Source: a virus
Taxonomy: Duplodnaviria > Caudoviricetes
Direction: 5' to 3' (one strand)
Length of the DNA: 64,000 nt
IMG/VR virus record: IMGVR_UViG_3300027566_000003
In this document: positions 22,669 to 63,155 of the stretch, piece after piece
Position numbering within the stretch: position 1 is the stretch's first letter
How the letters are laid out: each line of letters begins with the position of its first letter
Translations under genes and position numbers: made by a program
Notes under the pieces: generated by a model
The model's input: only the letters and a program-made list of their open reading frames with translations
The model's database searches: none
Told to the model about the DNA's origin: nothing

Positions 22669-22696
22669 TATACAAACACCTTCTATGTATTTATAT

Positions 22697-22734
22697 TATA
22701 TAAGTCAAGGCATGAAAATACCCTGACTTATATA
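22697..22734. terminator. Stem-loop downstream of the AAA ATPase gene
   Basis: TATATAAGTCA / TGACTTATATA 11-bp inverted repeat. Confidence 0.5.
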
Positions 22735-22750
22735 ATTTTTTATATTTATA

Positions 22751-37196: not shown

Positions 37197-37239
37197 AAGG
37201 TGTAATATATTTTATTTTCCACTTATTATATTACACCTT
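37197..37239 (-). terminator. Rho-independent terminator
   Basis: 13-bp inverted repeat AAGGTGTAATATA / TATATTACACCTT followed by TGTTTTT on the minus strand. Confidence 0.65.
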
Positions 37240-53875: not shown

Positions 53876-54859
53876 TTACTTTGGGGTTAGACTACTTTTG
53901 TAACTGTCATACATTTCCTTTAAAGAGTTGCCATTTCTTTCATCCAATTCTAAATTCCTGTATAGTTGTTTAAAGTGATCCGGCTTCAATTCCCCTAATT
54001 CTTTCTCCATTGATAAGCATTTATCTAATAAACCACTTTTAAATATAAGAGTTGGTGTTAAGAACTTTACATTTAAATAACTTCTAAAATTTCTAAATCT
54101 TGAACTAATATTTCCTGGAGTCATTCTATCATCATCGCTAAAGAATACGTCCATAGACCTAATAATAAAGGGGGTATCCTTTAGTGGTAAAATAGAAAAT
54201 GTGTCTGTTGCATCACCATTTGATTTATGATAATATTCTTCCTTAGATGCTGCTATTAGGATATCCATAGTTCTTTGATCCACTTGAACTTTTCTTGGTG
54301 AAGGATTTTTAATTAAGTCATCGGGGTCTTTAATAACATTCACTATATTAAATTCTGGAATAAGATCAGTCTTTTTGAGATTTCTTATTTCTTCATAGGA
54401 AAATCCCTCTTTAGTTCTGCCTCTTATTCCTTCGTATAGTAATGCTATTAATGCTTTGTCAACGTAGTTGTGGAGTCTGTTGCAGTAGTCATACATTTGA
54501 TCTCTTGAAATAAATGAATTTTTTTGAGCAACTTTATGGATGTATTTTTTTAAGTCTTCCTTGTTGACTAGTTTCAAAACATTCATTGAAGAATAGTGTT
54601 TATCCAAACAGCACCAGTCTAAATATTGCATAATAATTGCATAAGCTACACCCATTGATCTAAGAGATTTCTTTTTCATTCCAATTAATAAGTCTTTAAT
54701 TTCTTCGTAACTAAAACTACACAAATCTTTATCTAGTTCATACTCAAATCTTCCTACGCTTCTTAAAATAGAAGTGTTTGTTGATCTGGTTGATTCATTT
54801 GGATATTTCTCATTTAAGAAGCAATTTTTACGATCTTCATTAAATAATTTATGATCCAT
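53876..54859 (-). CDS. Integrase-fold repressor, SPbeta YopR/MrpR/SroF-like (327 aa; true ATG at 54859)
   Basis: FNEDRKNCFL...DKDLCSFS...QYLDWC (SAM-like N-terminus), ALIALLYEGI, KFLTPTLIFKSG (recalled YopR: FLTPNTIVRSG); HxxR box degenerate; coupled to the upstream gene. Confidence 0.75.
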   Translation of the reverse strand: MDHKLFNEDRKNCFLNEKYPNESTRSTNTSILRSVGRFEYELDKDLCSFSYEEIKDLLIGMKKKSLRSMGVAYAIIMQYLDWCCLDKHYSSMNVLKLVNKEDLKKYIHKVAQKNSFISRDQMYDYCNRLHNYVDKALIALLYEGIRGRTKEGFSYEEIRNLKKTDLIPEFNIVNVIKDPDDLIKNPSPRKVQVDQRTMDILIAASKEEYYHKSNGDATDTFSILPLKDTPFIIRSMDVFFSDDDRMTPGNISSRFRNFRSYLNVKFLTPTLIFKSGLLDKCLSMEKELGELKPDHFKQLYRNLELDERNGNSLKEMYDSYKSSLTPK

Positions 54860-54860
54860 T

Positions 54861-56210
54861 TTATTGAACCTCCCATTGAGCAACAATAGATTTAAAATAG
54901 TCAGATATTTTATCCATTGTTTTTTTGTTGACATTGTTTTCAATACCAATTTTCTTCCAAATATCGTTTGTTTTGCTAAAGTCTAAAGTTTTTAATATTT
55001 TAGTCAATTGATTTTTCCAATCATCACCATATTTTTGTTTAACTAATTCACCTAAAACAACATATCCAATAAACATATTGTTTGATGAAACATATGAATT
55101 CTCTCTCGCTTCAGTTAATTTACTGTTAAAAGATTCATAATTTACACCAATACAAATATTAAAAAGTTTTATTAAAAACTCTTCTACATTTTCTGACTCT
55201 GTAATAGGTAAATTTTTTAAATCATATACATAATCAATCGTTTTTGACAAAGTGTCAAACGTAACTAGTTTATTTTCAACTTTTAGCTCTTGTTCATTTA
55301 ATCCAATGCGGTTAAACATTTCATTTTTCTTTTGCTTTTCATTAATTGATCTTGCAGTTAACATATTAATATTGCTAGAACTTTTATACTGGATGGATTC
55401 CGGTGGGATGGGTGCTGCCAAACTTTCTTGTTCAATTATTTCATTCGCTCTTTCTTCTGTAACATGATGAATATAAATACTAGTTACCCTCTGAATGTCC
55501 TTACTTTTTTCAATGCATTTTAGCATTCCCCCTGTCCGATTTGCTCCGTCAATTATGTCCACTGACGTAGATATACCATCAGGTTCAATTAATAAGGTTC
55601 TTGCTTTACTATCATATTTAAATTTCTGAATGCCTTTTATCTTGCGTATATTCCATGTTATGGCATTGGGGCAAAACGTATTATTTAACATAGAGTTGGC
55701 GATTTCAGCAACTTTATCTGGGTCAATATCAATGGATTCAATTATTTTGTTTCCACTTTTCCTTTTCTGGAGTGGTCTTTGGGTGTTTGGGTTATATGTT
55801 AATAATCCATTTCCCATATACAAACCAATATTTTGATAAGTTTCTTTTGTACACAACCATTGAGACTCGCTGATTTGGTCAACATTGTGTAACATAATAT
55901 ATTTTACTTTTTCTTCTTCGGTTTTTTGATATGAATCTGCATATGATAATTCAATATCAGTAAACCACTCATTTGGCTTGATTTTTAATTCATGTGTAAA
56001 TTCATAAAGATGTTTTACAAATAAACATAATTCATTTTCTGTGAGATATACTAATGGAGTTACTTTGGTAAATATACCAGTAGTTCTACCTCGACTAATT
56101 CCTTTTTCAATCAACTTAGAAATAACCTTTTCTTGAATCTTAGTATCAACTGAATATTCTTCGACGATTAAATCTAAAACATCTTCAAGTTTTTGACGGT
56201 CTTGCTTCAT
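54861..56210 (-). CDS. DndB/DGQHR-like protein, SPbeta YopQ/SroE-like repressor
   Basis: LLTYNPNTQR, DIIDGANR, LDFSKTNDIWKKIG, versus recalled YopQ LLHYNPNAQR, DVLDGYHR, IDFSKKNKLWDELG; directly upstream of the sroF-like gene. Confidence 0.75.
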   Translation of the reverse strand: MKQDRQKLEDVLDLIVEEYSVDTKIQEKVISKLIEKGISRGRTTGIFTKVTPLVYLTENELCLFVKHLYEFTHELKIKPNEWFTDIELSYADSYQKTEEEKVKYIMLHNVDQISESQWLCTKETYQNIGLYMGNGLLTYNPNTQRPLQKRKSGNKIIESIDIDPDKVAEIANSMLNNTFCPNAITWNIRKIKGIQKFKYDSKARTLLIEPDGISTSVDIIDGANRTGGMLKCIEKSKDIQRVTSIYIHHVTEERANEIIEQESLAAPIPPESIQYKSSSNINMLTARSINEKQKKNEMFNRIGLNEQELKVENKLVTFDTLSKTIDYVYDLKNLPITESENVEEFLIKLFNICIGVNYESFNSKLTEARENSYVSSNNMFIGYVVLGELVKQKYGDDWKNQLTKILKTLDFSKTNDIWKKIGIENNVNKKTMDKISDYFKSIVAQWEVQ

Positions 56211-56427: not shown

Positions 56428-57135
56428 TTAAGGTTTTTGTTTTGAGTCTAGTAAGGGATAGATATAATTATAACCTATATTAGAAATACTTAGCAACTCT
56501 AAAAGTAAACCGAAACAACTTGATATGACAATTATTTTTATATTAAAGAGCAAGAAGATGGTCATTAATACGGCCCATATGGATAAATAATATAATGACC
56601 ATCGTTTAAATTTATGACGTTCTAATTGTTCTGCAATTGGTTTATTTGGCGTGTCTCTTGGAATATAGCGATAAACTATATATAATGTCATAACAACACA
56701 AAAAATAAATAAATACCAAATTCCTAAAAATGGCCAATATTGGAGAGTGTATTTTACTATTAGCGATGTTGTAATGAATTGAATTAAAGATATTACTGTA
56801 CATTTATTATATGTTTTAAAATGATATCCACCTGCCATTGGTCTTAAAGACATAAAAGTTAAGACTACTACAATGGCAGGTGAAAAGACTCCCAAGATTA
56901 ATGACAACAATACTAATAATAAACCTTTAAATACCGCACCAACAGGAAACATGAATGCTAGACTATATACGCTTATAAGTTCTTCAGTGGTTTTTATTTT
57001 TTTAATATTAAACTTATGAGAGAGTTGTGGAAATACCCCTGCGATCCATCCCCAAGCATATTCAATTTGATCTAATGGTACTTTCTTTACCATTTTATGA
57101 GCTAAATTATTTGATATAATTTGAATTAGATTCAT
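56428..57135 (-). CDS. agrB: AgrB-like autoinducing-peptide processing membrane protease
   Basis: LRPMAGGYHFKTYNKC (R-x-x-A-G-G-x-H...C catalytic signature), PRDTPNKPI, multiple TM segments. Confidence 0.9.
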   Translation of the reverse strand: MNLIQIISNNLAHKMVKKVPLDQIEYAWGWIAGVFPQLSHKFNIKKIKTTEELISVYSLAFMFPVGAVFKGLLLVLLSLILGVFSPAIVVVLTFMSLRPMAGGYHFKTYNKCTVISLIQFITTSLIVKYTLQYWPFLGIWYLFIFCVVMTLYIVYRYIPRDTPNKPIAEQLERHKFKRWSLYYLSIWAVLMTIFLLFNIKIIVISSCFGLLLELLSISNIGYNYIYPLLDSKQKP

Positions 57136-57151: not shown

Positions 57152-57955
57152 TTAGGCAAATGCTACTTGCCTCCCTGTATTATAGTTATTTTGATATTGA
57201 AATGTTTTTTGTGTTCTCTCTTTGTTAAAAGTTTCTAGAACTTCAATAGCAAACTTTTCAGGAACATCTAAAGGAATATATCCGTCTGCCTTACCAAGTC
57301 CAACGGCAACTTTCATCATTAATTCTTTCGAACATTCTGCTACTTTTTCTACTACTCCTGATCCTGAAATTAATCTTCTTTTACTGATTGTGTCTTCTAA
57401 TTCACAACAAATGATAGAATCACATCTTAAACCATGCTCCTTTCCTATAAAAACATGAGTCGGTAATGGCGGTTTACTGCCTACACGACTAGTTATTGCT
57501 AAAACCTTTGTGTTACTACTGAATAAATTACCTTTTGGATTTTGCACCACGAGCACAGGTCGATGTCCTATCACCTCTGAATCAATCCCACTGTCAGAAA
57601 AATTACAAAAATATATTCCTCCACGTTCTATTTTTATATTTCTAATTTTTTCTAAATCATTATTTGTATAATTAGAATATCCACAAGCCAAAGTCAAATC
57701 CTTAAACGAAACTCGCCCTTGAGAATTATCAGAAATTACCTTTAGAAATGTTATATCTGGGTATGTAGACATTTTAGTCTTAATTACACCCTCCATATAA
57801 TCCCCGCTAACCTTACAATCTGCTGCAAAATTATCAATTGATCTATTACCTTTTGCAAGTATAACGTAATTTGCAAGTTTCTTAAAATCTTTTTTAGCAT
57901 TTTCCTCAGTATTAGATTTCCTAGTAATTAATTTGTTAAACATATCAATACACAT
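57152..57955 (-). CDS. Fusion of an N-terminal XRE-like HTH and a C-terminal PemK/MazF endoribonuclease
   Basis: KGNRSIDNFAADCKVS...YPDITFLKVISDNSQGRVSFKDLTLACGY; then ERGGIYF...GHRPVLVVQN...LAITS...LPTHV...DSIICCE. Confidence 0.8.
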   Translation of the reverse strand: MCIDMFNKLITRKSNTEENAKKDFKKLANYVILAKGNRSIDNFAADCKVSGDYMEGVIKTKMSTYPDITFLKVISDNSQGRVSFKDLTLACGYSNYTNNDLEKIRNIKIERGGIYFCNFSDSGIDSEVIGHRPVLVVQNPKGNLFSSNTKVLAITSRVGSKPPLPTHVFIGKEHGLRCDSIICCELEDTISKRRLISGSGVVEKVAECSKELMMKVAVGLGKADGYIPLDVPEKFAIEVLETFNKERTQKTFQYQNNYNTGRQVAFA

Positions 57956-58232: not shown

Positions 58233-59062
58233 TAGAATTCACCTCCTTTTTCATTAATTTTTACATCATCCATTACTATATCCTGCGTAGCAAGATTTTC
58301 GTATGTCTGGTGTATTCTTTTTTCAACTTTTAGGATATAATTAACTATTAATAATATAAATGTTATAGTAATCGTCGGGATAATAAACATCATAACTACT
58401 ATAATTAATTGTTCAAAAAACGATAAATTTATTAAAATTAAATCTATTCCTATTAGTTTAATTAAGTAAATCATTGTAATCATTATACCTATCAATAAAC
58501 TAAACATTGATCTTTTTAAGAAACTATTTTTTAGTATTATATCAAATAACTTAATTTTTACATCTTCACTTTTTTTTACTATTAAGTATGTCAATATAGA
58601 ATATTCTATTACTCTTGCTGGTAATGAACATAAAAAATTCAAAATAAAGTTGGAGTTTATGTATAAGATATTTGTTTTTGTGAGAGATAATATTAACGGG
58701 TAGTAGCATTCTAATATTGAAATAATGAAAATTCCTAATATTGTATAAAACAATGCTTTAAAGTATTTAATCTTCTCTTGAAGTAAATTATTATTTTTTA
58801 TAACAACTAATGTTAATAAATATAATACTAGTATACCAGTTATTTGGGCAATAGATTTTGAAATATTTGTTAATCTTGCAAAACTTATTATAAAAGACAT
58901 TCCAATTGCTGGTAAAGCGACCCATTTTATATTATCTTTCCACATTCTGATATCTAATAAATCATCTCTACTTATACCTATTAATACTATTGCTACAACG
59001 AACAATTCTTCTGGTAAACTTACTAAAAACATGTTTAATAAGGCATTAATTGTACTTTGCAT
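58232..59062 (-). CDS. Polytopic membrane protein resembling an AgrC/VirS sensor domain, without kinase domains
   Basis: 276 aa, about 7 hydrophobic segments, short cytoplasmic tail; no H-box or HATPase motifs; translationally coupled to agrD. Confidence 0.6.
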   Translation of the reverse strand: MQSTINALLNMFLVSLPEELFVVAIVLIGISRDDLLDIRMWKDNIKWVALPAIGMSFIISFARLTNISKSIAQITGILVLYLLTLVVIKNNNLLQEKIKYFKALFYTILGIFIISILECYYPLILSLTKTNILYINSNFILNFLCSLPARVIEYSILTYLIVKKSEDVKIKLFDIILKNSFLKRSMFSLLIGIMITMIYLIKLIGIDLILINLSFFEQLIIVVMMFIIPTITITFILLIVNYILKVEKRIHQTYENLATQDIVMDDVKINEKGGEF

Positions 59063-59114
59063 ATGTATCTACTCCCTATCTCTTATTATTTATCTTATTA
59101 TTTATCTTAGGATA

Positions 59115-59144
59115 ATTATACCATATGCAAAGTATATAAGTCAA
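59115..59144 (-). promoter_or_regulatory. Promoter for the sensor-like gene and agrD
   Basis: TTGACT-18 bp-TATAAT with TGn extended -10. Confidence 0.65.
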
Positions 59145-59764: not shown

Positions 59765-61381
59765 TTACGGAGGTTCATCATCTTTTTTAATCATATTCTC
59801 ATAGTCTACCAAATACATCCATCTATAACCTTTTGCAAACTCACGAACTTTATTAGTATCTGATCTTATCCTCTTGGTCAAACAACTACTAATTGCAGAG
59901 TTATTCGCAAGACCTAAATCTTTTGTTGCATCTCTCACAGAATTATATTGTTTAACAAATTTATAATCCTTAGATAAACAAATAATTTTTATAGTTCCTG
60001 TTTGATGATAATCATCTGGTTTAATTAAGATATTGTTCCAAATTGAATAACTTATAGCACCTTTAGTTGCTCCTACATATTCAGCAACTTCATCAAAATT
60101 ATAACCATTATCTAATAATCTTTGTGCTTCTTCTACGTCCCAATCTCTTCTTGTATTTTTACTATCATCAATATATTCTGGCATTTCTTTAATATATGGG
60201 AAAAACATCTGTATTGCTTCCAAAGGAGAATAATCTCTGTGGTCTAAATCTATGTAATTATATTTATTATCTATTGCAAATTGCTTTTTAAGTTTATCTC
60301 GCGCCATATGTATTTCATCATCATGATATTCGCTTTGACATTCTATTAATAGATTTAATCTTGGAACATAAATATCATATTTGCTTACACCATTTTTATC
60401 TGTTCTAAATCCTATATCATATTCCCATTTTGTATCATGATCTTCATGCTTAAATACTTGTTTAAGCGTTGTTGCCATTCTAGACTCTACTTTTTCTCTT
60501 ACACATTCAGGACATCCAAAATTACAATTTTTTGCACTATATATTATTTGTGGATAATCTTCATGTTTACACTCTTTACATTTCCACCAAACTTTTGTAC
60601 TGCTTCCTGGGGTATATTCATATGGAGATTTATTATTTTTATCAGACCAAATTTCTATTGTTTGAGGATATAAATATCCTAAACTATCATATTTATGTAC
60701 TTTTACACGCGAATTACAATACCCACACCTCCCTCCACTAATAAATTCTCCGCAAAGAATATCATAACTCCCATGGTAATCTTTTTCTTGGCATTTAATC
60801 CAAACTTTTCTATTAGTATATTTAGTGTATTTAAAAGGGTCAATTGTATTTTTATCATAGTCCCAATATAATTCTAACGCAGTAACACCAAACGAATCTA
60901 TTAAAAATTGTCCAAAACTATCTTTAGGATGTACAGAATTTTGTCCTTTACAATAACTACATCTATTACCTCTTATAAAATCCGAACCACTAATTTGATA
61001 ACTTCCATGATAGTTTTTCTTTCTACAAAAGATATAAAATTTTTTGTAATTATTATAATTAATTTTCCAAGGATCAATGCCTAATTCATTATTCTTCTCA
61101 TAATCCCAATATTCTTTAAGAAAATCTTCTCCTAAATTATCTATCCCCCATTCTGCGAATGTATAACACAATCCACAACTACTTTTAGATTTTCTATTTA
61201 TAATACCAGAAGGACTGACTAACCAATCCTTGCCGCACGTACAAGTATGTAGTATTTTAGTATTAGCACCAATATATTCAACTCCTTCTTTTAACTTTAT
61301 ATTTGTATCATATTTTAAATTATATTCTTCTAATTCTTGTTTATATTGTTCTGTTGTCTTCTTATTAGTTTTCTTAGTCAA
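59765..61381 (-). CDS. Putative homing endonuclease: Zn-ribbon repeats, PD-(D/E)xK-like domain and NUMOD1-like tail
   Basis: Three WDYEKN...K(V)W.(C)...H.SY...R.C.YC units; YDIYVPRLNLLIECQSEYH; KQYNSVRDATKDLG...AISSCL...KGYRWMY. Confidence 0.65.
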   Translation of the reverse strand: MTKKTNKKTTEQYKQELEEYNLKYDTNIKLKEGVEYIGANTKILHTCTCGKDWLVSPSGIINRKSKSSCGLCYTFAEWGIDNLGEDFLKEYWDYEKNNELGIDPWKINYNNYKKFYIFCRKKNYHGSYQISGSDFIRGNRCSYCKGQNSVHPKDSFGQFLIDSFGVTALELYWDYDKNTIDPFKYTKYTNRKVWIKCQEKDYHGSYDILCGEFISGGRCGYCNSRVKVHKYDSLGYLYPQTIEIWSDKNNKSPYEYTPGSSTKVWWKCKECKHEDYPQIIYSAKNCNFGCPECVREKVESRMATTLKQVFKHEDHDTKWEYDIGFRTDKNGVSKYDIYVPRLNLLIECQSEYHDDEIHMARDKLKKQFAIDNKYNYIDLDHRDYSPLEAIQMFFPYIKEMPEYIDDSKNTRRDWDVEEAQRLLDNGYNFDEVAEYVGATKGAISYSIWNNILIKPDDYHQTGTIKIICLSKDYKFVKQYNSVRDATKDLGLANNSAISSCLTKRIRSDTNKVREFAKGYRWMYLVDYENMIKKDDEPP

Positions 61382-61412: not shown

Positions 61413-61832
61413 TTATGCATAAACTACACCATTTTTATTTCTTAATTCTACCAATCCAAACTGTATACCGATTCCTCTATCAATTCTTAACATAGTTTCC
61501 TCATCGCATTGTCCTATTTTTTCTTCAATCAAATCTCTCGTGACTGGCATGGACTGTTCGCAGAGAGCAATAGAATCCATTTTTAGGCCAGAATTTCTAC
61601 TGATGGGTATATGAGTAGGTAATTTTGATTTTGTGGTCACAGAAGTTAAAGGACATATATGTAGTACATTGGAATATTGATTACAGGCGTTGTTGCTAAT
61701 TATCACTACGGGACGCTTAAATTGTTGGATAGATCCATTACTGTTGGGAAGATTTGCAATATAGATATCGCCCCTCTTAATCTCTTTTTGAGCTTGAACA
61801 TTATTTATTGTTTGTTTCATAATACTAATCAC
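61413..61832 (-). CDS. mazF: Orphan PemK/MazF endoribonuclease
   Basis: KRGDIYIANL...KRPVVIISN...PLTS...LPTHI...DSIALCEQ; no antitoxin-like neighbour. Confidence 0.85.
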   Translation of the reverse strand: MISIMKQTINNVQAQKEIKRGDIYIANLPNSNGSIQQFKRPVVIISNNACNQYSNVLHICPLTSVTTKSKLPTHIPISRNSGLKMDSIALCEQSMPVTRDLIEEKIGQCDEETMLRIDRGIGIQFGLVELRNKNGVVYA

Positions 61833-61864
61833 TCCTTTTTATTTTCTTATGATTAGTATTATGA
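61817..61864 (-). promoter_or_regulatory. Perfect 15-bp inverted repeat that would sequester the mazF start codon region
   Basis: TCATAATACTAATCA 61817-31 / TGATTAGTATTATGA 61850-64; the 18-nt loop holds AAAAAGGAG. Confidence 0.7.
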
Positions 61865-62630
61865 CCAATAATTTGTCCAATATACCTATTATTTTATAAA
61901 AATTTTATTTATATTGTATAACTATTACTTGCAATCAAAATTACATTCTAATTATTACCACCATAAACTATCCAAACACAAAGCAAACAAACTAACTACA
62001 TCATCAGCTTTCTCTTTTTGCGCATCTGTCATTTTGTATTCATCGATAGTTAAATAAATCTTTAAACCATCTAACATCCTATCAATACATTCTTGAAATG
62101 TAATTGTTTTCCCTTTGAACTCGTATTTATGAAAAGACGTATCAATACTATTTACTTCATTATACATAGATAATCTTTCATATAACCATAATTTAAATGT
62201 AAAATCCATCGACCAAGTTTCCTTTTCATCAAAACCATATATTTCTCTTTCTTTCGACCATTTCTCCTGTCTAGGATCATCTTTATTCCAACCTTGATGA
62301 GTATTATCCTCTTTTATACCGATGTCTTTAAGATATTTGCCTAACATTTAATTATCATCCTTAAATATTAAATCCTTTAAAAAACTTGTTTGCTAGGATT
62401 GTTTAAATAATTTACAATAATCTTCCCATACATTCATTGCAAGTATTTTCTATATATTTAACAATTTCACTATATGTCTCAAAACTTATTTTCTTGTTCT
62501 TCTCACAATTCTTACACTTATTAAGCGATCCTAATATAAAATTTACCTGTAATAATACACGTAATTTTATATATTCCCATTCTATCTTCAGTATTTTTAT
62601 ATGGCATGTTTCTCCTTTACTATTTATATT

Positions 62631-63155
62631 TTATAGTAATTGTAATCTCTTCACATACTTTTTCGCATCTTGTTTAAGCATAGGTGGCAATCCTACCACC
62701 GTAAGACTTCCATAAGGAATTTCGGTTAACCCATTATCCCTTATGTAATAAAACCCTGCGTCAATTAACTTCTCCAAATCCTTTTGTTTACCACGCAAAA
62801 TTATTTTCTTTTGATCTAATTCATACCATTGCCAAAATAATCCCCATCGTTTAAAACTATTTTCTACTGCAATTATTGTTGCAACATGAGCTACTTGGGC
62901 AGCAACCTTCCCTGGGCTTAGGTTTAATTCTGAATTCACGATAAAATATTCTACAATTTCAAATTCCTCTGGTTTAATAAAACTCATATTAAATTCCTCT
63001 TTACAATTAGGACAATTAAAATAACTACCACTAGAATTTTGTTCGATAGGTATGATGTCTACAATATCATATTTTTTAAATTGTTTTTTAGTTTCTCTAT
63101 TCCATTCTTCAGATGTTGATAACGCTCCGCAATTTGGGCATATGTATTTTTTCAT
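62631..63155 (-). CDS. Zn-ribbon::Pth2 peptidyl-tRNA hydrolase fusion (copy 2)
   Basis: CPNCG...CPNCK N-terminus, then NSELNLSPGKVAAQVAH...; 60-bp block identical to copy 1. Confidence 0.85.
   Translation of the reverse strand: MKKYICPNCGALSTSEEWNRETKKQFKKYDIVDIIPIEQNSSGSYFNCPNCKEEFNMSFIKPEEFEIVEYFIVNSELNLSPGKVAAQVAHVATIIAVENSFKRWGLFWQWYELDQKKIILRGKQKDLEKLIDAGFYYIRDNGLTEIPYGSLTVVGLPPMLKQDAKKYVKRLQLL

What the first reader, a model, noticed from the sequence alone, without database searches (positions are those of the whole stretch)
61413..61864. Antitoxin-less mazF whose start region is locked in a perfect 15-bp hairpin
Seen: the mRNA leader UCAUAAUACUAAUCA is exactly complementary to UGAUUAGUAUUAUGA, which spans the candidate GUG/AUU/AUG starts. 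The SD lies in the 18-nt loop. There is no MazE-like neighbour. Inference: cis translational silencing of the toxin, relieved by an sRNA, processing, or an alternative transcription start within the stem.
Basis: partly seen in the sequence, partly recalled or inferred. Interest (0 to 1): 0.6.

Follow-up and report, generated by a model that had tools for sequence, protein, structure and literature searches.

The report
Promoter-embedded hairpin gating a phage MazF toxin
A large phage carries a MazF RNA-cutting toxin with no antitoxin, and a conserved RNA hairpin hides its start codon in long read-through transcripts. The gene's own sporulation-type promoter sits inside the hairpin's upstream arm and should give a short, translatable message.

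Summary
Arms 61850-61864 and 61817-61831 form a perfect 15-bp stem with an 18-nt loop that holds the SD AAAGGAG. The ATG at 61820 lies in the 3' arm. It is the longest perfect inverted repeat in the window, and mazF has the hardest-to-open ribosome site of 66 genes.

The hairpin is not chance. 25 of 26 distinct leaders of the same MazF clade (50-70% identical, large uncultured phage contigs) keep a 14-19-bp stem ending on the ATG. At least ten different stem sequences occur, 11 of 16 pairs show compensatory changes, and 39 G-U pairs favour the mRNA strand. Rfam has no match.

The 5' arm is also the -10 element and discriminator of a promoter conserved across the leaders: G[TA]ATA, 17 nt, [CA]ATA[AC]TA. 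This matches mapped Clostridioides difficile sigmaF/sigmaG promoters. The predicted start falls within 2 nt of the end of the 5' arm.

Best reading: transcripts from the gene's own promoter lack the 5' arm and are translated, while read-through transcripts are locked. This works like IS10 fold-back inhibition, applied here to an antitoxin-less toxin. No MazE-like neighbour is conserved.

The start site, the sigma factor and the toxicity are all inferred. Another reader of this scan had noted an orphan MazF under a forespore promoter in another genome, and that lead prompted the promoter test.

The parts
61413..61820 (-). mazF coding sequence (135 aa, stop included): a solitary PemK/MazF endoribonuclease.
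   Evidence: Pfam PF02452 at 9.7e-25 and PHROG 'MazF-like growth inhibitor' at 5.5e-29. The catalytic Arg and Thr of B. subtilis/B. anthracis MazF (R25, T48) align with R36 and T59. R36 is invariant in the clade and T59 is at least 90% conserved.
61817..61831 (-). 3' arm of the hairpin: the SD-to-ATG spacer, the ATG (61820-61818) and one further base.
   Evidence: In 25 of 26 related leaders the stem ends at +1 to +7 of the ATG.
61832..61849 (-). 18-nt A-rich loop. The SD AAAGGAG lies at 61838-61832. The loop is also the predicted 5' end of the own-promoter transcript.
   Evidence: Loops are 15-21 nt in most relatives (MFE drew 6-9-nt inner loops in five), always with the SD on the 3' side and a conserved AAG on the 5' side.
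61850..61864 (-). 5' arm of the hairpin. It equals the -10 heptamer CATAATA (61863-61857) plus the discriminator CTAATCA.
   Evidence: Compensatory changes concentrate in the discriminator half: 19 cells against 5 in the heptamer half.
61881..61885 (-). -35-like GTATA, exactly 17 nt upstream of the -10 heptamer. Forespore sigmaF/sigmaG-type promoter.
   Evidence: All 26 leaders that carry the promoter pattern align without gaps from the -35 through the -10 (L036 had none). The strict pattern is in 19 of 27 leaders and a loose variant in 7 more, against 3 matches in 212 kb elsewhere in the same loci. It resembles mapped C. difficile sigF/sigG promoters (Table S6 of PMC3789822).
61849..61851 (-). 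Predicted transcription start of the own promoter (6th-7th nt after the heptamer).
   Evidence: Inferred from the heptamer-to-TSS distance in mapped C. difficile promoters. It falls -2 to +1 nt from the end of the 5' arm in all 25 leaders scored. It has not been measured.
61865..61954 (-). Rest of the intergenic leader, with no terminator. It holds a degenerate copy (TTAGAATGTAA, 61951-61941) of a motif conserved about 95 nt upstream of mazF in relatives.
   Evidence: No terminator-like site. None was found between -320 and -60 in 25 loci. Motif.
61955..62347 (-). Upstream gene (130 aa, unknown function). It is the likely source of read-through transcripts and is not a conserved partner of mazF.
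   Evidence: No Pfam hit and a weak phrog_17000 hit. The same cluster lies upstream in only 5 of 26 loci, and the others have unrelated genes there.
59765..61381 (-). Downstream DUF4379/HNH-like endonuclease. It is an optional insert between mazF and the DUF5317 and AgrC-like genes.
   Evidence: Pfam PF14311 and PHROG HNH endonuclease. It is present in 11 loci and absent in the others, where mazF is followed by DUF5317 and the AgrC-like gene, directly or after one other gene.

Best explanation
The hairpin is a real, conserved cis-acting RNA element that works as an insulator for a toxin gene without an antitoxin.

Its 5' arm is the -10 heptamer plus discriminator of mazF's own promoter, a forespore-type (sigmaF/sigmaG-like) promoter of the form G[TA]ATA-N17-[CA]ATA[AC]TA. 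Its 3' arm is the spacer between the SD and the ATG, plus the ATG itself.

RNA polymerase starting at this promoter begins transcription at the last base or bases of the 5' arm. That mRNA therefore has a roughly 30-nt unstructured leader with a free SD and ATG, and MazF is made. RNA that reads in from the upstream same-strand genes carries both arms, since no terminator intervenes. The 15-16-bp stem then buries the start codon while the SD sits idle in the loop, and MazF is not made.

The effect is to limit synthesis of an active MazF RNase to the time or cell compartment in which its own promoter fires. That is probably the sporulating cell or forespore, or wherever a phage sigmaF/G-like factor is present.

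Shown here: the hairpin, its covariation and strand bias, the conserved promoter motif and its geometry, the absence of a conserved antitoxin neighbour, and intact catalytic residues.

Inferred: the transcription start, the sigma factor, the existence of read-through RNA, the toxicity of the protein and its biological role.
For: Hairpin conservation:
- 25 of 26 distinct leaders fold on their own into a 14-19-bp stem that ends at +1 to +7 of the ATG, and every loop holds the SD on its 3' side (15-21 nt in most).
- On 14 sense sequences, 97.9% of cells are paired and 11 of 16 pairs change on both sides. 0 of 500 shuffles reach this, and slid controls give 21-63% paired.
- The mRNA strand folds better than its complement in 23 of 25 leaders, by 4.4 kcal/mol on average, with 39 G-U pairs.
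- The stem persists when -150 to +90 is folded.
- The element is single-copy in the 94-kb record and absent from 74 loci of more distant MazF genes.

Promoter:
- The 26 pattern-bearing leaders align without gaps from G[TA]ATA through 17 nt to the heptamer.
- The strict pattern is in 19 of 27 leaders, against 0.0016 expected per leader from the rest of the same loci.
- It matches mapped C. difficile sigF/sigG promoters such as GGGAATACTA and GGACATAATA. It does not match the CATA[TAC]A -10 of sigE/sigK promoters.

Geometry and energetics:
- The predicted start lies -2 to +1 nt from the end of the 5' arm in 25 of 25 leaders.
- RBS opening energy in the window is 2.8 kcal/mol for the own-promoter RNA against 17.9 for the read-through RNA. 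The means over 25 leaders are 5.5 and 14.2.
- Covariation concentrates in the discriminator half of the arm, as expected if the heptamer half is also constrained by promoter function.
- No terminator-like hairpin lies upstream in any of 25 loci.

A parallel in the same module: the AgrC-like gene has a 5' arm inside the spacer of a TTGACT-18-TATAAT promoter that pairs with its own start codon. This is seen in 5 of 7 loci.
Against: - No transcript data exist, so the start site is predicted from a motif only.
- A single match to the promoter pattern in the window is not significant by itself: 0.78 are expected by chance. The case therefore rests on conservation among homologous, not independent, leaders.
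- Sporulation sigma consensus sequences are AT-rich and resemble one another. A weak sigmaA reading (GGTATA-17-CATAAT) or sigmaE cannot be excluded.
- The host is unknown, so whether it sporulates is unknown.
- One relative (L005) keeps the promoter but has lost the 3' arm, so the lock is dispensable in at least one lineage.
- The covariation alignment was fitted to the model, although the independent single-sequence folds agree with it.
Confidence: 0.55

Rival explanations
1. Constitutive lock. All functional mazF transcripts start upstream of the 5' arm, so the hairpin silences every mRNA. MazF is made only when a trans factor opens the hairpin or cuts it in the loop. Candidates are an sRNA, an RNA-binding protein, an RNase such as RNase Y or RNase III, a MazF-type nuclease, or a brief co-transcriptional window before the 3' arm is made.
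For: The hairpin and its covariation fit this equally well. The loop keeps conserved bases beyond the SD, AAG and AUAAA. The SD is exposed, which would allow 30S standby binding, as described for structured toxin mRNAs such as tisB (PMC7708055).
Against: It does not explain why the 5' arm coincides base for base with a conserved -10 heptamer and discriminator, nor why a -35 sits at a fixed 17 nt. No complement to either arm exists elsewhere in the 94-kb record. No UACAU(A) MazF site occurs in the leaders. No consistent upstream anti-sequestor pairing was found.
Confidence: 0.22
2. DNA-level element. The inverted repeat is an operator for a dimeric DNA-binding protein, for example the HTH-MazF fusion or the phage repressor. 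It would overlap the promoter -10 and the start of the gene, and the RNA hairpin would be a by-product.
For: The repeat overlaps the putative -10. A pseudo-palindromic TTGGACAA/TTGTCCAA motif recurs near the promoter. An HTH-MazF gene lies in the same module.
Against: There are 39 G-U pairs, which would be A-C mismatches on the other strand and broken symmetry in DNA. The sense strand is more stable in 23 of 25 leaders. Half-site sequences differ widely between relatives while pairing is kept. Arm spacing varies from 15 to 21 nt.
Confidence: 0.07
3. Type I-like control by a cis-encoded antisense RNA. It would start inside the first codons of mazF, and its mirror hairpin would kiss the mRNA hairpin.
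For: The plus strand of the window has TTGAAC-18-CATAAT at 61794-61823. The same arrangement occurs in some relatives with the longer N-terminus.
Against: In relatives with a shorter N-terminus the spacing drops to 15 nt or the -35 is missing. The antisense hairpin is much weaker in most loci, -5 to -12 kcal/mol. MazF is not a small membrane toxin.
Confidence: 0.06
4. Stability or processing element. This would be a 5'-proximal stem-loop that protects the mRNA from 5' exonuclease, or an RNase III site, with no direct role in initiation.
For: A stable stem lies near the 5' end of any transcript that starts shortly upstream. Known 5' stem-loops stabilise Bacillus mRNAs (own knowledge).
Against: A stabiliser need not contain the start codon, yet 25 of 25 stems end on it. 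If the own promoter is real, its transcript lacks the stem altogether.
Confidence: 0.05

Closest known systems
Fold-back inhibition of IS10/Tn10 (and IS50) transposase mRNA. It protects against activation by external promoters (Davis, Simons & Kleckner 1985, Cell 43:379, cited in PMC13181058; details from own knowledge).
   Same: A sequence just upstream of the gene's own transcription start is complementary to the start-codon region. Only transcripts coming from outside carry it and are translationally blocked. Transcripts from the resident promoter are open.
   Different: The protected gene is a MazF-family RNase on a phage, not a transposase. The 5' arm is the -10 and discriminator of a sporulation-type promoter. 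The stem is longer (15-16 bp) and is kept by compensatory change across a whole phage clade. It is not an IS end.
Cis-structured type I toxin mRNAs (tisB, hok, aapA1, timP, bsrG; PMC7708055, PMC13000454, PMC6733600, PMC3834814).
   Same: Toxin synthesis is held off by an mRNA structure that hides the initiation region, and there is no protein antitoxin.
   Different: Those toxins are small membrane peptides with an antisense RNA antitoxin, and most are activated by processing or standby binding. Here the toxin has a type II fold, no antisense RNA is supported, and relief is proposed to come from promoter choice.
Canonical mazEF / ndoAI-ndoA type II modules (B. subtilis EndoA, PDB 4MDX and 4ME7; B. 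anthracis PemK, 4HKE).
   Same: The same toxin fold and catalytic Arg and Thr. Best PDB E-values are about 2e-19 to 2e-17.
   Different: There is no upstream antitoxin gene, and a gap of at least 122 nt in all 26 loci. By contrast 26 of 42 more distant MazF loci have an adjacent upstream ORF. The gene heads an agr-like module rather than a two-gene operon.
Forespore sigmaF/sigmaG promoters of Clostridioides difficile (Saujet et al. 2013, PMC3789822, Table S6).
   Same: -35 GTATA or GAATA, a 16-17-nt spacer, G residues just before a -10 of the AATACTA, AATAATA or ACATAAT type, and a start 6-7 nt later.
   Different: Here the promoter is on a phage, and its -10 doubles as an anti-start-codon sequence. 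Sigma dependence is untested. Some relatives encode their own SigF/SigG-like factor.
Host MazF in the arbitrium lysis-lysogeny decision of phage phi3T (Zamora-Caballero et al. 2024, PMC10769878).
   Same: MazF RNase activity is used by a temperate Bacillota phage next to an SPbeta-type repressor region, and MazF activity favours lysogeny.
   Different: In phi3T the MazF is the host's and is controlled by the proteins AimX, YosL and MazE. Here the phage carries its own mazF, and control is proposed at the level of promoter and RNA structure.

Membership tests
PemK/MazF toxin family (Pfam PF02452) | Sequence match above the curated cut-off. | tested here: met
   87.3 bits against a 23.1-bit cut-off, covering profile positions 1-108 of 109.
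PemK/MazF toxin family (Pfam PF02452) | Catalytic Arg and Thr (R25 and T48 of B. subtilis MazF). | tested here: met
   R36 and T59 align with R25 and T48 of 4HKE and 7BXY. R36 is invariant in the clade and T59 is at least 90% conserved. The T48A mutant is reported inactive in PMC10769878.
PemK/MazF toxin family (Pfam PF02452) | Sequence-specific endoribonuclease activity and growth inhibition. | not testable with these tools
   Needs expression and cleavage assays.
Type II mazEF toxin-antitoxin module | Adjacent, co-transcribed protein antitoxin gene (MazE, AbrB or RHH type). | tested here: not met
   The nearest upstream same-strand ORF ends at least 122 nt away in all 26 loci and belongs to many unrelated clusters. 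No PF04014 or PF01402 domain occurs in the 94-kb record. The record is only about 56% complete, so a distant antitoxin cannot be excluded.
Type I toxin-antitoxin system | Antisense or trans RNA antitoxin complementary to the toxin mRNA. | tested here: inconclusive
   No second copy or complement of the arms exists in the record. An antisense promoter-like site is present in the window but is not conserved (and reading). No RNA data are available.
Rfam cis-regulatory RNA families | Match to a curated covariance model. | tested here: not met
   The best hits have E of 0.7 or worse and lie far below the gathering scores.
Fold-back inhibition (IS10-type protection from read-through) | 5' segment complementary to the start-codon region. 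| tested here: met
   A 15-16-bp stem over the ATG, conserved with compensatory changes.
Fold-back inhibition (IS10-type protection from read-through) | The gene's own transcription start lies downstream of that 5' segment. | tested here: inconclusive
   The promoter motif predicts a start at -2 to +1 nt from the end of the arm in 25 of 25 leaders. No start site has been mapped.
Fold-back inhibition (IS10-type protection from read-through) | Read-through transcripts reach the gene. | tested here: inconclusive
   The upstream genes are on the same strand, and no terminator-like hairpin was found in 25 loci. Selection on the stem implies such RNAs exist, but no RNA data are available.
Forespore sigmaF/sigmaG-dependent promoter | -35 G[TA]ATA, about 17-nt spacer, -10 [CA]ATA[AC]TA preceded by G. 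| tested here: met
   The window has GTATA-17-CATAATA preceded by GGT. Conservation is shown. Comparison was made with mapped promoters.
Forespore sigmaF/sigmaG-dependent promoter | Transcription depends on sigmaF or sigmaG. | not testable with these tools
   Needs in vitro transcription or reporter assays in sig mutants.

The most novel reading that the evidence does not exclude
A family of large phages of spore-forming Bacillota expresses an antitoxin-free MazF RNase only in the forespore, or under a phage sigmaF/G-like factor. An RNA lock built from the promoter's own -10 region suppresses every other transcript. This would feed sporulation state into an agr-type lysis-lysogeny or spore-entrapment circuit. 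It would also be a new way to keep a type II-fold toxin safe, by compartment and RNA structure rather than by an antitoxin.
Probability: 0.3. Interest if true: 0.8.

Novelty: new variant of a known kind. Interest (0 to 1): 0.62.

Why it matters
Type II-fold toxins are expected to come with a protein antitoxin. Here a whole clade of phage MazF genes lacks one, and instead carries a strongly covarying RNA element not found in Rfam.

The geometry gives a concrete, testable answer to how a phage can carry a bare toxin. The 5' arm equals the -10 plus discriminator of a sporulation-type promoter, and the 3' arm holds the start codon. Only transcripts from the right promoter would be translatable.

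It extends a trick known from insertion sequences to toxin control. It links a phage MazF to sporulation sigma factors, and it sits at the head of an agr-like signalling module next to SPbeta-type repressor genes. In that setting MazF activity is already known to bias phages towards lysogeny (PMC10769878). A second gene of the module seems to use the same design, which suggests a general way in which these phages insulate promoter-specific genes without terminators.

Tried and rejected
The 237-kb contig with the identical MazF could not be fetched, so related loci came from the search for related loci instead.
- Megablast against phage records found nothing. A single-protein scan of viral contigs also found nothing.
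- A plain MAFFT alignment of the leaders put the arms out of register, and RNAalifold returned no pairs. It was replaced by single-sequence folds and covariance-model alignments.
- CM alignments with loose thresholds mixed sense and antisense hits. Only the sense-only alignment A5 was used for pair counts.
- Rfam gave no family.
- Trans-acting complement: only the two arms themselves match with 2 or fewer mismatches beyond chance.
- MazF self-cleavage idea: UACAU(A) is absent from all but one leader (one upstream site, L036) and variable in the coding sequences, so it is uninformative.
- Upstream anti-sequestor or riboswitch-like toggle: the conserved GTGATTnnAATGTAG motif pairs with the 5' arm in only a few loci. 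Rejected as a general feature.
- General phage promoter class or phage sigma regulon: the promoter pattern occurs 0-1 times per genome. No sigma gene is in the held record. It was therefore treated as specific to mazF.
- The upstream 130-aa protein as antitoxin: it is not conserved next to mazF and has no PADLOC or Pfam hit.
- GTDB genomes hold no member of the clade, only MazFs of 47% identity or less from Bacillota.

Full report
**What is there**

The window is part of a 94-kb IMG/VR virus record that is about 56% complete. The identical MazF protein is on record on a contig of 237 kb, so this is a large phage. All genes in the region lie on the minus strand.

The ORF 61413-61820 encodes a 135-aa PemK/MazF protein (Pfam 9.7e-25; PHROG 'MazF-like growth inhibitor'). 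Its closest solved relatives are B. anthracis PemK and B. subtilis EndoA. The catalytic Arg and Thr align with R36 and T59, and both are conserved in the clade.

The mRNA-strand segment 61864-61850 is perfectly complementary to 61831-61817, with 18 nt between them. The loop ends in the SD AAAGGAG. The GTG at 61832 overlaps the SD, and homologues place the start at ATG 61820 inside the 3' arm.

**Is it more than chance?**

- It is the longest perfect inverted repeat in the window, with 0.03 of that size expected per shuffled window.
- The leader folds with z = -4.85.
- Opening the ribosome site costs 18.2 kcal/mol, the highest of 66 genes (median 5.0, sd 3.3).

**Relatives**

A protein search found a tight clade of about 20 proteins at 52-70% identity, well separated from ordinary MazFs at 47% or less. 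Scans of viral and metagenome contigs gave 26 distinct leaders of this clade, many on contigs of 100-230 kb. No member is in the GTDB genomes. The nearest cellular MazFs come from Clostridia and other Bacillota.

Each leader was folded alone. In 25 of 26, a 14-19-bp stem forms whose 3' end lies at +1 to +7 of the ATG. Every loop holds the SD on its 3' side (15-21 nt in most). Only L005 lacks the stem. At least ten different stem sequences occur.

On a sense-only covariance-model alignment of 14 sequences:
- 97.9% of cells pair.
- 11 of 16 pairs show changes on both sides.
- No shuffle of 500 reaches this.
- Sliding the partner by 1-3 columns drops pairing to 21-63%.

The mRNA strand folds better than its complement in 23 of 25 leaders, by 4.4 kcal/mol on average, and the stems hold 39 G-U pairs. 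This points to an RNA on the sense strand rather than a DNA operator or an antisense RNA.

The stem survives folding of -150 to +90. The element is single-copy in the record, absent from 74 loci with more distant MazF genes and unknown to Rfam.

**Antitoxin**

In all 26 loci the nearest upstream same-strand ORF ends at least 122 nt before mazF, and these ORFs belong to many unrelated clusters.

Downstream there is either an optional HNH/DUF4379 endonuclease or another insert, followed by DUF5317 and an AgrC-like membrane protein. mazF is therefore the first gene of a conserved agr-like module.

By contrast, 26 of 42 distant MazF loci have an adjacent upstream ORF. No MazE or RHH domain is in the 94-kb record. 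'Antitoxin-less' holds for the neighbourhood. It cannot be asserted for the unseen 44% of the genome.

**The turn: the 5' arm is a promoter**

I tested that idea on these leaders.

- The 26 leaders that carry the promoter pattern align without a single gap from a -35-like G[TA]ATA, through 17 nt, to the heptamer [CA]ATA[AC]TA. One or two G residues lie just before the heptamer.
- The strict pattern is in 19 of 27 leaders, a one-step variant in 7 more, and only 3 times in 212 kb elsewhere in the same loci.
- In the window it reads GTATA (61885-61881), 17 nt, CATAATA (61863-61857).
- Experimentally mapped sigmaF and sigmaG promoters of C. difficile have this form: GTATA or GAATA, 16-17 nt, then GGGAATACTA, GGACATAATA or AGTAATAATA, with the start 6-7 nt after the heptamer.
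- Mapped sigmaE and sigmaK promoters instead have -10 boxes of the CATATA, CATAAA or CATACA type.

The heptamer is the 5' half of the hairpin's 5' arm, and the rest of the arm is the discriminator. Applying the 6-7-nt rule puts the predicted start at -2 to +1 nt from the last base of the 5' arm in all 25 leaders. That is about 61849-61851 in the window, followed by the conserved AAG of the loop.

In line with this, compensatory changes concentrate in the discriminator half of the arm (19 cells), and the heptamer half changes little (5 cells).

**Consequence**

An RNA that starts at this promoter cannot form the stem. Its ribosome site opens for 2.8 kcal/mol in the window (mean 5.5 over 25 leaders), which is ordinary for this phage. 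An RNA that starts 150 nt upstream needs 17.9 kcal/mol (mean 14.2).

No terminator-like hairpin lies between -320 and -60 in any of 25 loci, and the upstream genes are on the same strand, so read-through is expected. Selection for pairing on the sense strand itself implies that such long RNAs exist and that their translation is harmful.

This is how IS10 and IS50 protect their transposase genes from outside promoters (Davis et al. 1985, cited; mechanism from own knowledge).

**A parallel in the same module**

The AgrC-like gene (ATG 59062) has ACTTTGCATATG (59133-59122) inside the spacer of a TTGACT-18-TATAAT promoter. This segment is complementary to CATATGCAAAGT over its own start codon (59065-59054). 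The pairing recurs in 5 of 7 related loci, with G-U variants.

**Which sigma?**

The held record has no sigma gene. Two related records (G001 of 227 kb and G005 of 146 kb) encode a divergent SigB/SigF/SigG-family protein (1.3e-29, below the curated cut-off). Two complete relatives with the same leader type do not.

The promoter pattern occurs 0-1 times per phage genome, so it is not a general phage promoter class. A host forespore sigma is the simplest reader, and a phage homologue is possible.

**Biological setting**

In phi3T, host MazF activity favours lysogeny and is tuned by phage proteins (PMC10769878). Here the phage brings its own mazF at the head of an agr-like module that ends in SPbeta-type repressor genes. 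MrpR-like domains occur in the ORF 53876-54949, and earlier notes of this scan describe the module.

A growth-arresting RNase made only in a cell that is entering dormancy would need no antitoxin. That is inference.

**Limits**

- There are no RNA data. The start site, the sigma factor, the read-through and the toxicity are all inferred.
- The leaders are homologous, so the counts measure conservation, not independent events.
- The pair-count alignment was fitted to the model, although the unfitted single folds agree.
- L005 shows that the lock can be lost.

**Verdict**

It is a new variant of a known kind of control.

Noticed in passing
window 59054-59144 (minus strand): The AgrC-like gene (ATG 59062) has a 12-nt segment (59133-59122) inside the spacer of a near-consensus TTGACT-18-TATAAT promoter. 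The segment is complementary to its own start-codon region (59065-59054). Start-codon opening energy is 9.3 kcal/mol, as high as for mazF. The pairing recurs in 5 of 7 related loci. This is the same 'arm upstream of own start' design as mazF.
   Followed up: partly
L006-L008, L032, L034-L046 about 95 nt upstream of the mazF ATG; degenerate copy at window 61951-61941: The motif GGAGGTGATTnnAATGTAGAAATAA occurs exactly once per locus. It reads as a strong SD, 8 nt, then ATG directly followed by TAG (a start-stop mini-ORF). It could also be an operator or promoter element. It is more conserved than the hairpin arms, and its function is unknown.
   Followed up: partly
L158:1054-1776 (record G001) and L157 (record G005): Two related phage records (G001, 227 kb; G005, 146 kb) encode a 240-aa divergent SigB/SigF/SigG-family sigma factor (TIGR02980 at 1.3e-29, below cut-off). 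Two complete relatives with the same mazF leader type lack it.
   Followed up: partly
L005:2944-3015: A natural variant. The promoter motif and a remnant of the 5' arm are kept, but the 3' arm is replaced and the SD is weaker. The MazF reading frame (133 aa) and its active-site-loop motif VLHVC are kept. It could serve as a natural 'stem-broken' control.
   Followed up: no
window 57152-57955 (minus strand): A second PemK/MazF domain (residues 110-220, 4.3e-18) lies in a 267-aa protein with an N-terminal extension that weakly matches a transcription-regulator PHROG. It sits next to agrB (56428-57135). The covariance model found no hairpin of the mazF type at its start.
   Followed up: partly
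window 59765-61381 and related loci: A DUF4379/HNH-like endonuclease gene is present between mazF and DUF5317 in 11 loci and absent in others. This looks like a mobile homing-endonuclease insertion polymorphism.
   Followed up: no
around the mazF promoter in window 61866-61880 and in relatives: The 8-mer TTGGACAA or its complement TTGTCCAA lies either just upstream or just downstream of the -35 in different relatives. In L007 both copies form a 9-bp palindrome around the -35. It may be a regulator binding site.
   Followed up: no
window 37197-37239 and 22695-22736: Two further perfect 13-bp inverted repeats. The first is followed by a T run and looks like an intrinsic terminator before the next gene's SD. 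The second is intergenic and has no T run.
   Followed up: no
window 62631-63155 (minus strand): A peptidyl-tRNA hydrolase PTH2 domain is fused to an N-terminal zinc-ribbon-like segment, two genes upstream of mazF.
   Followed up: no
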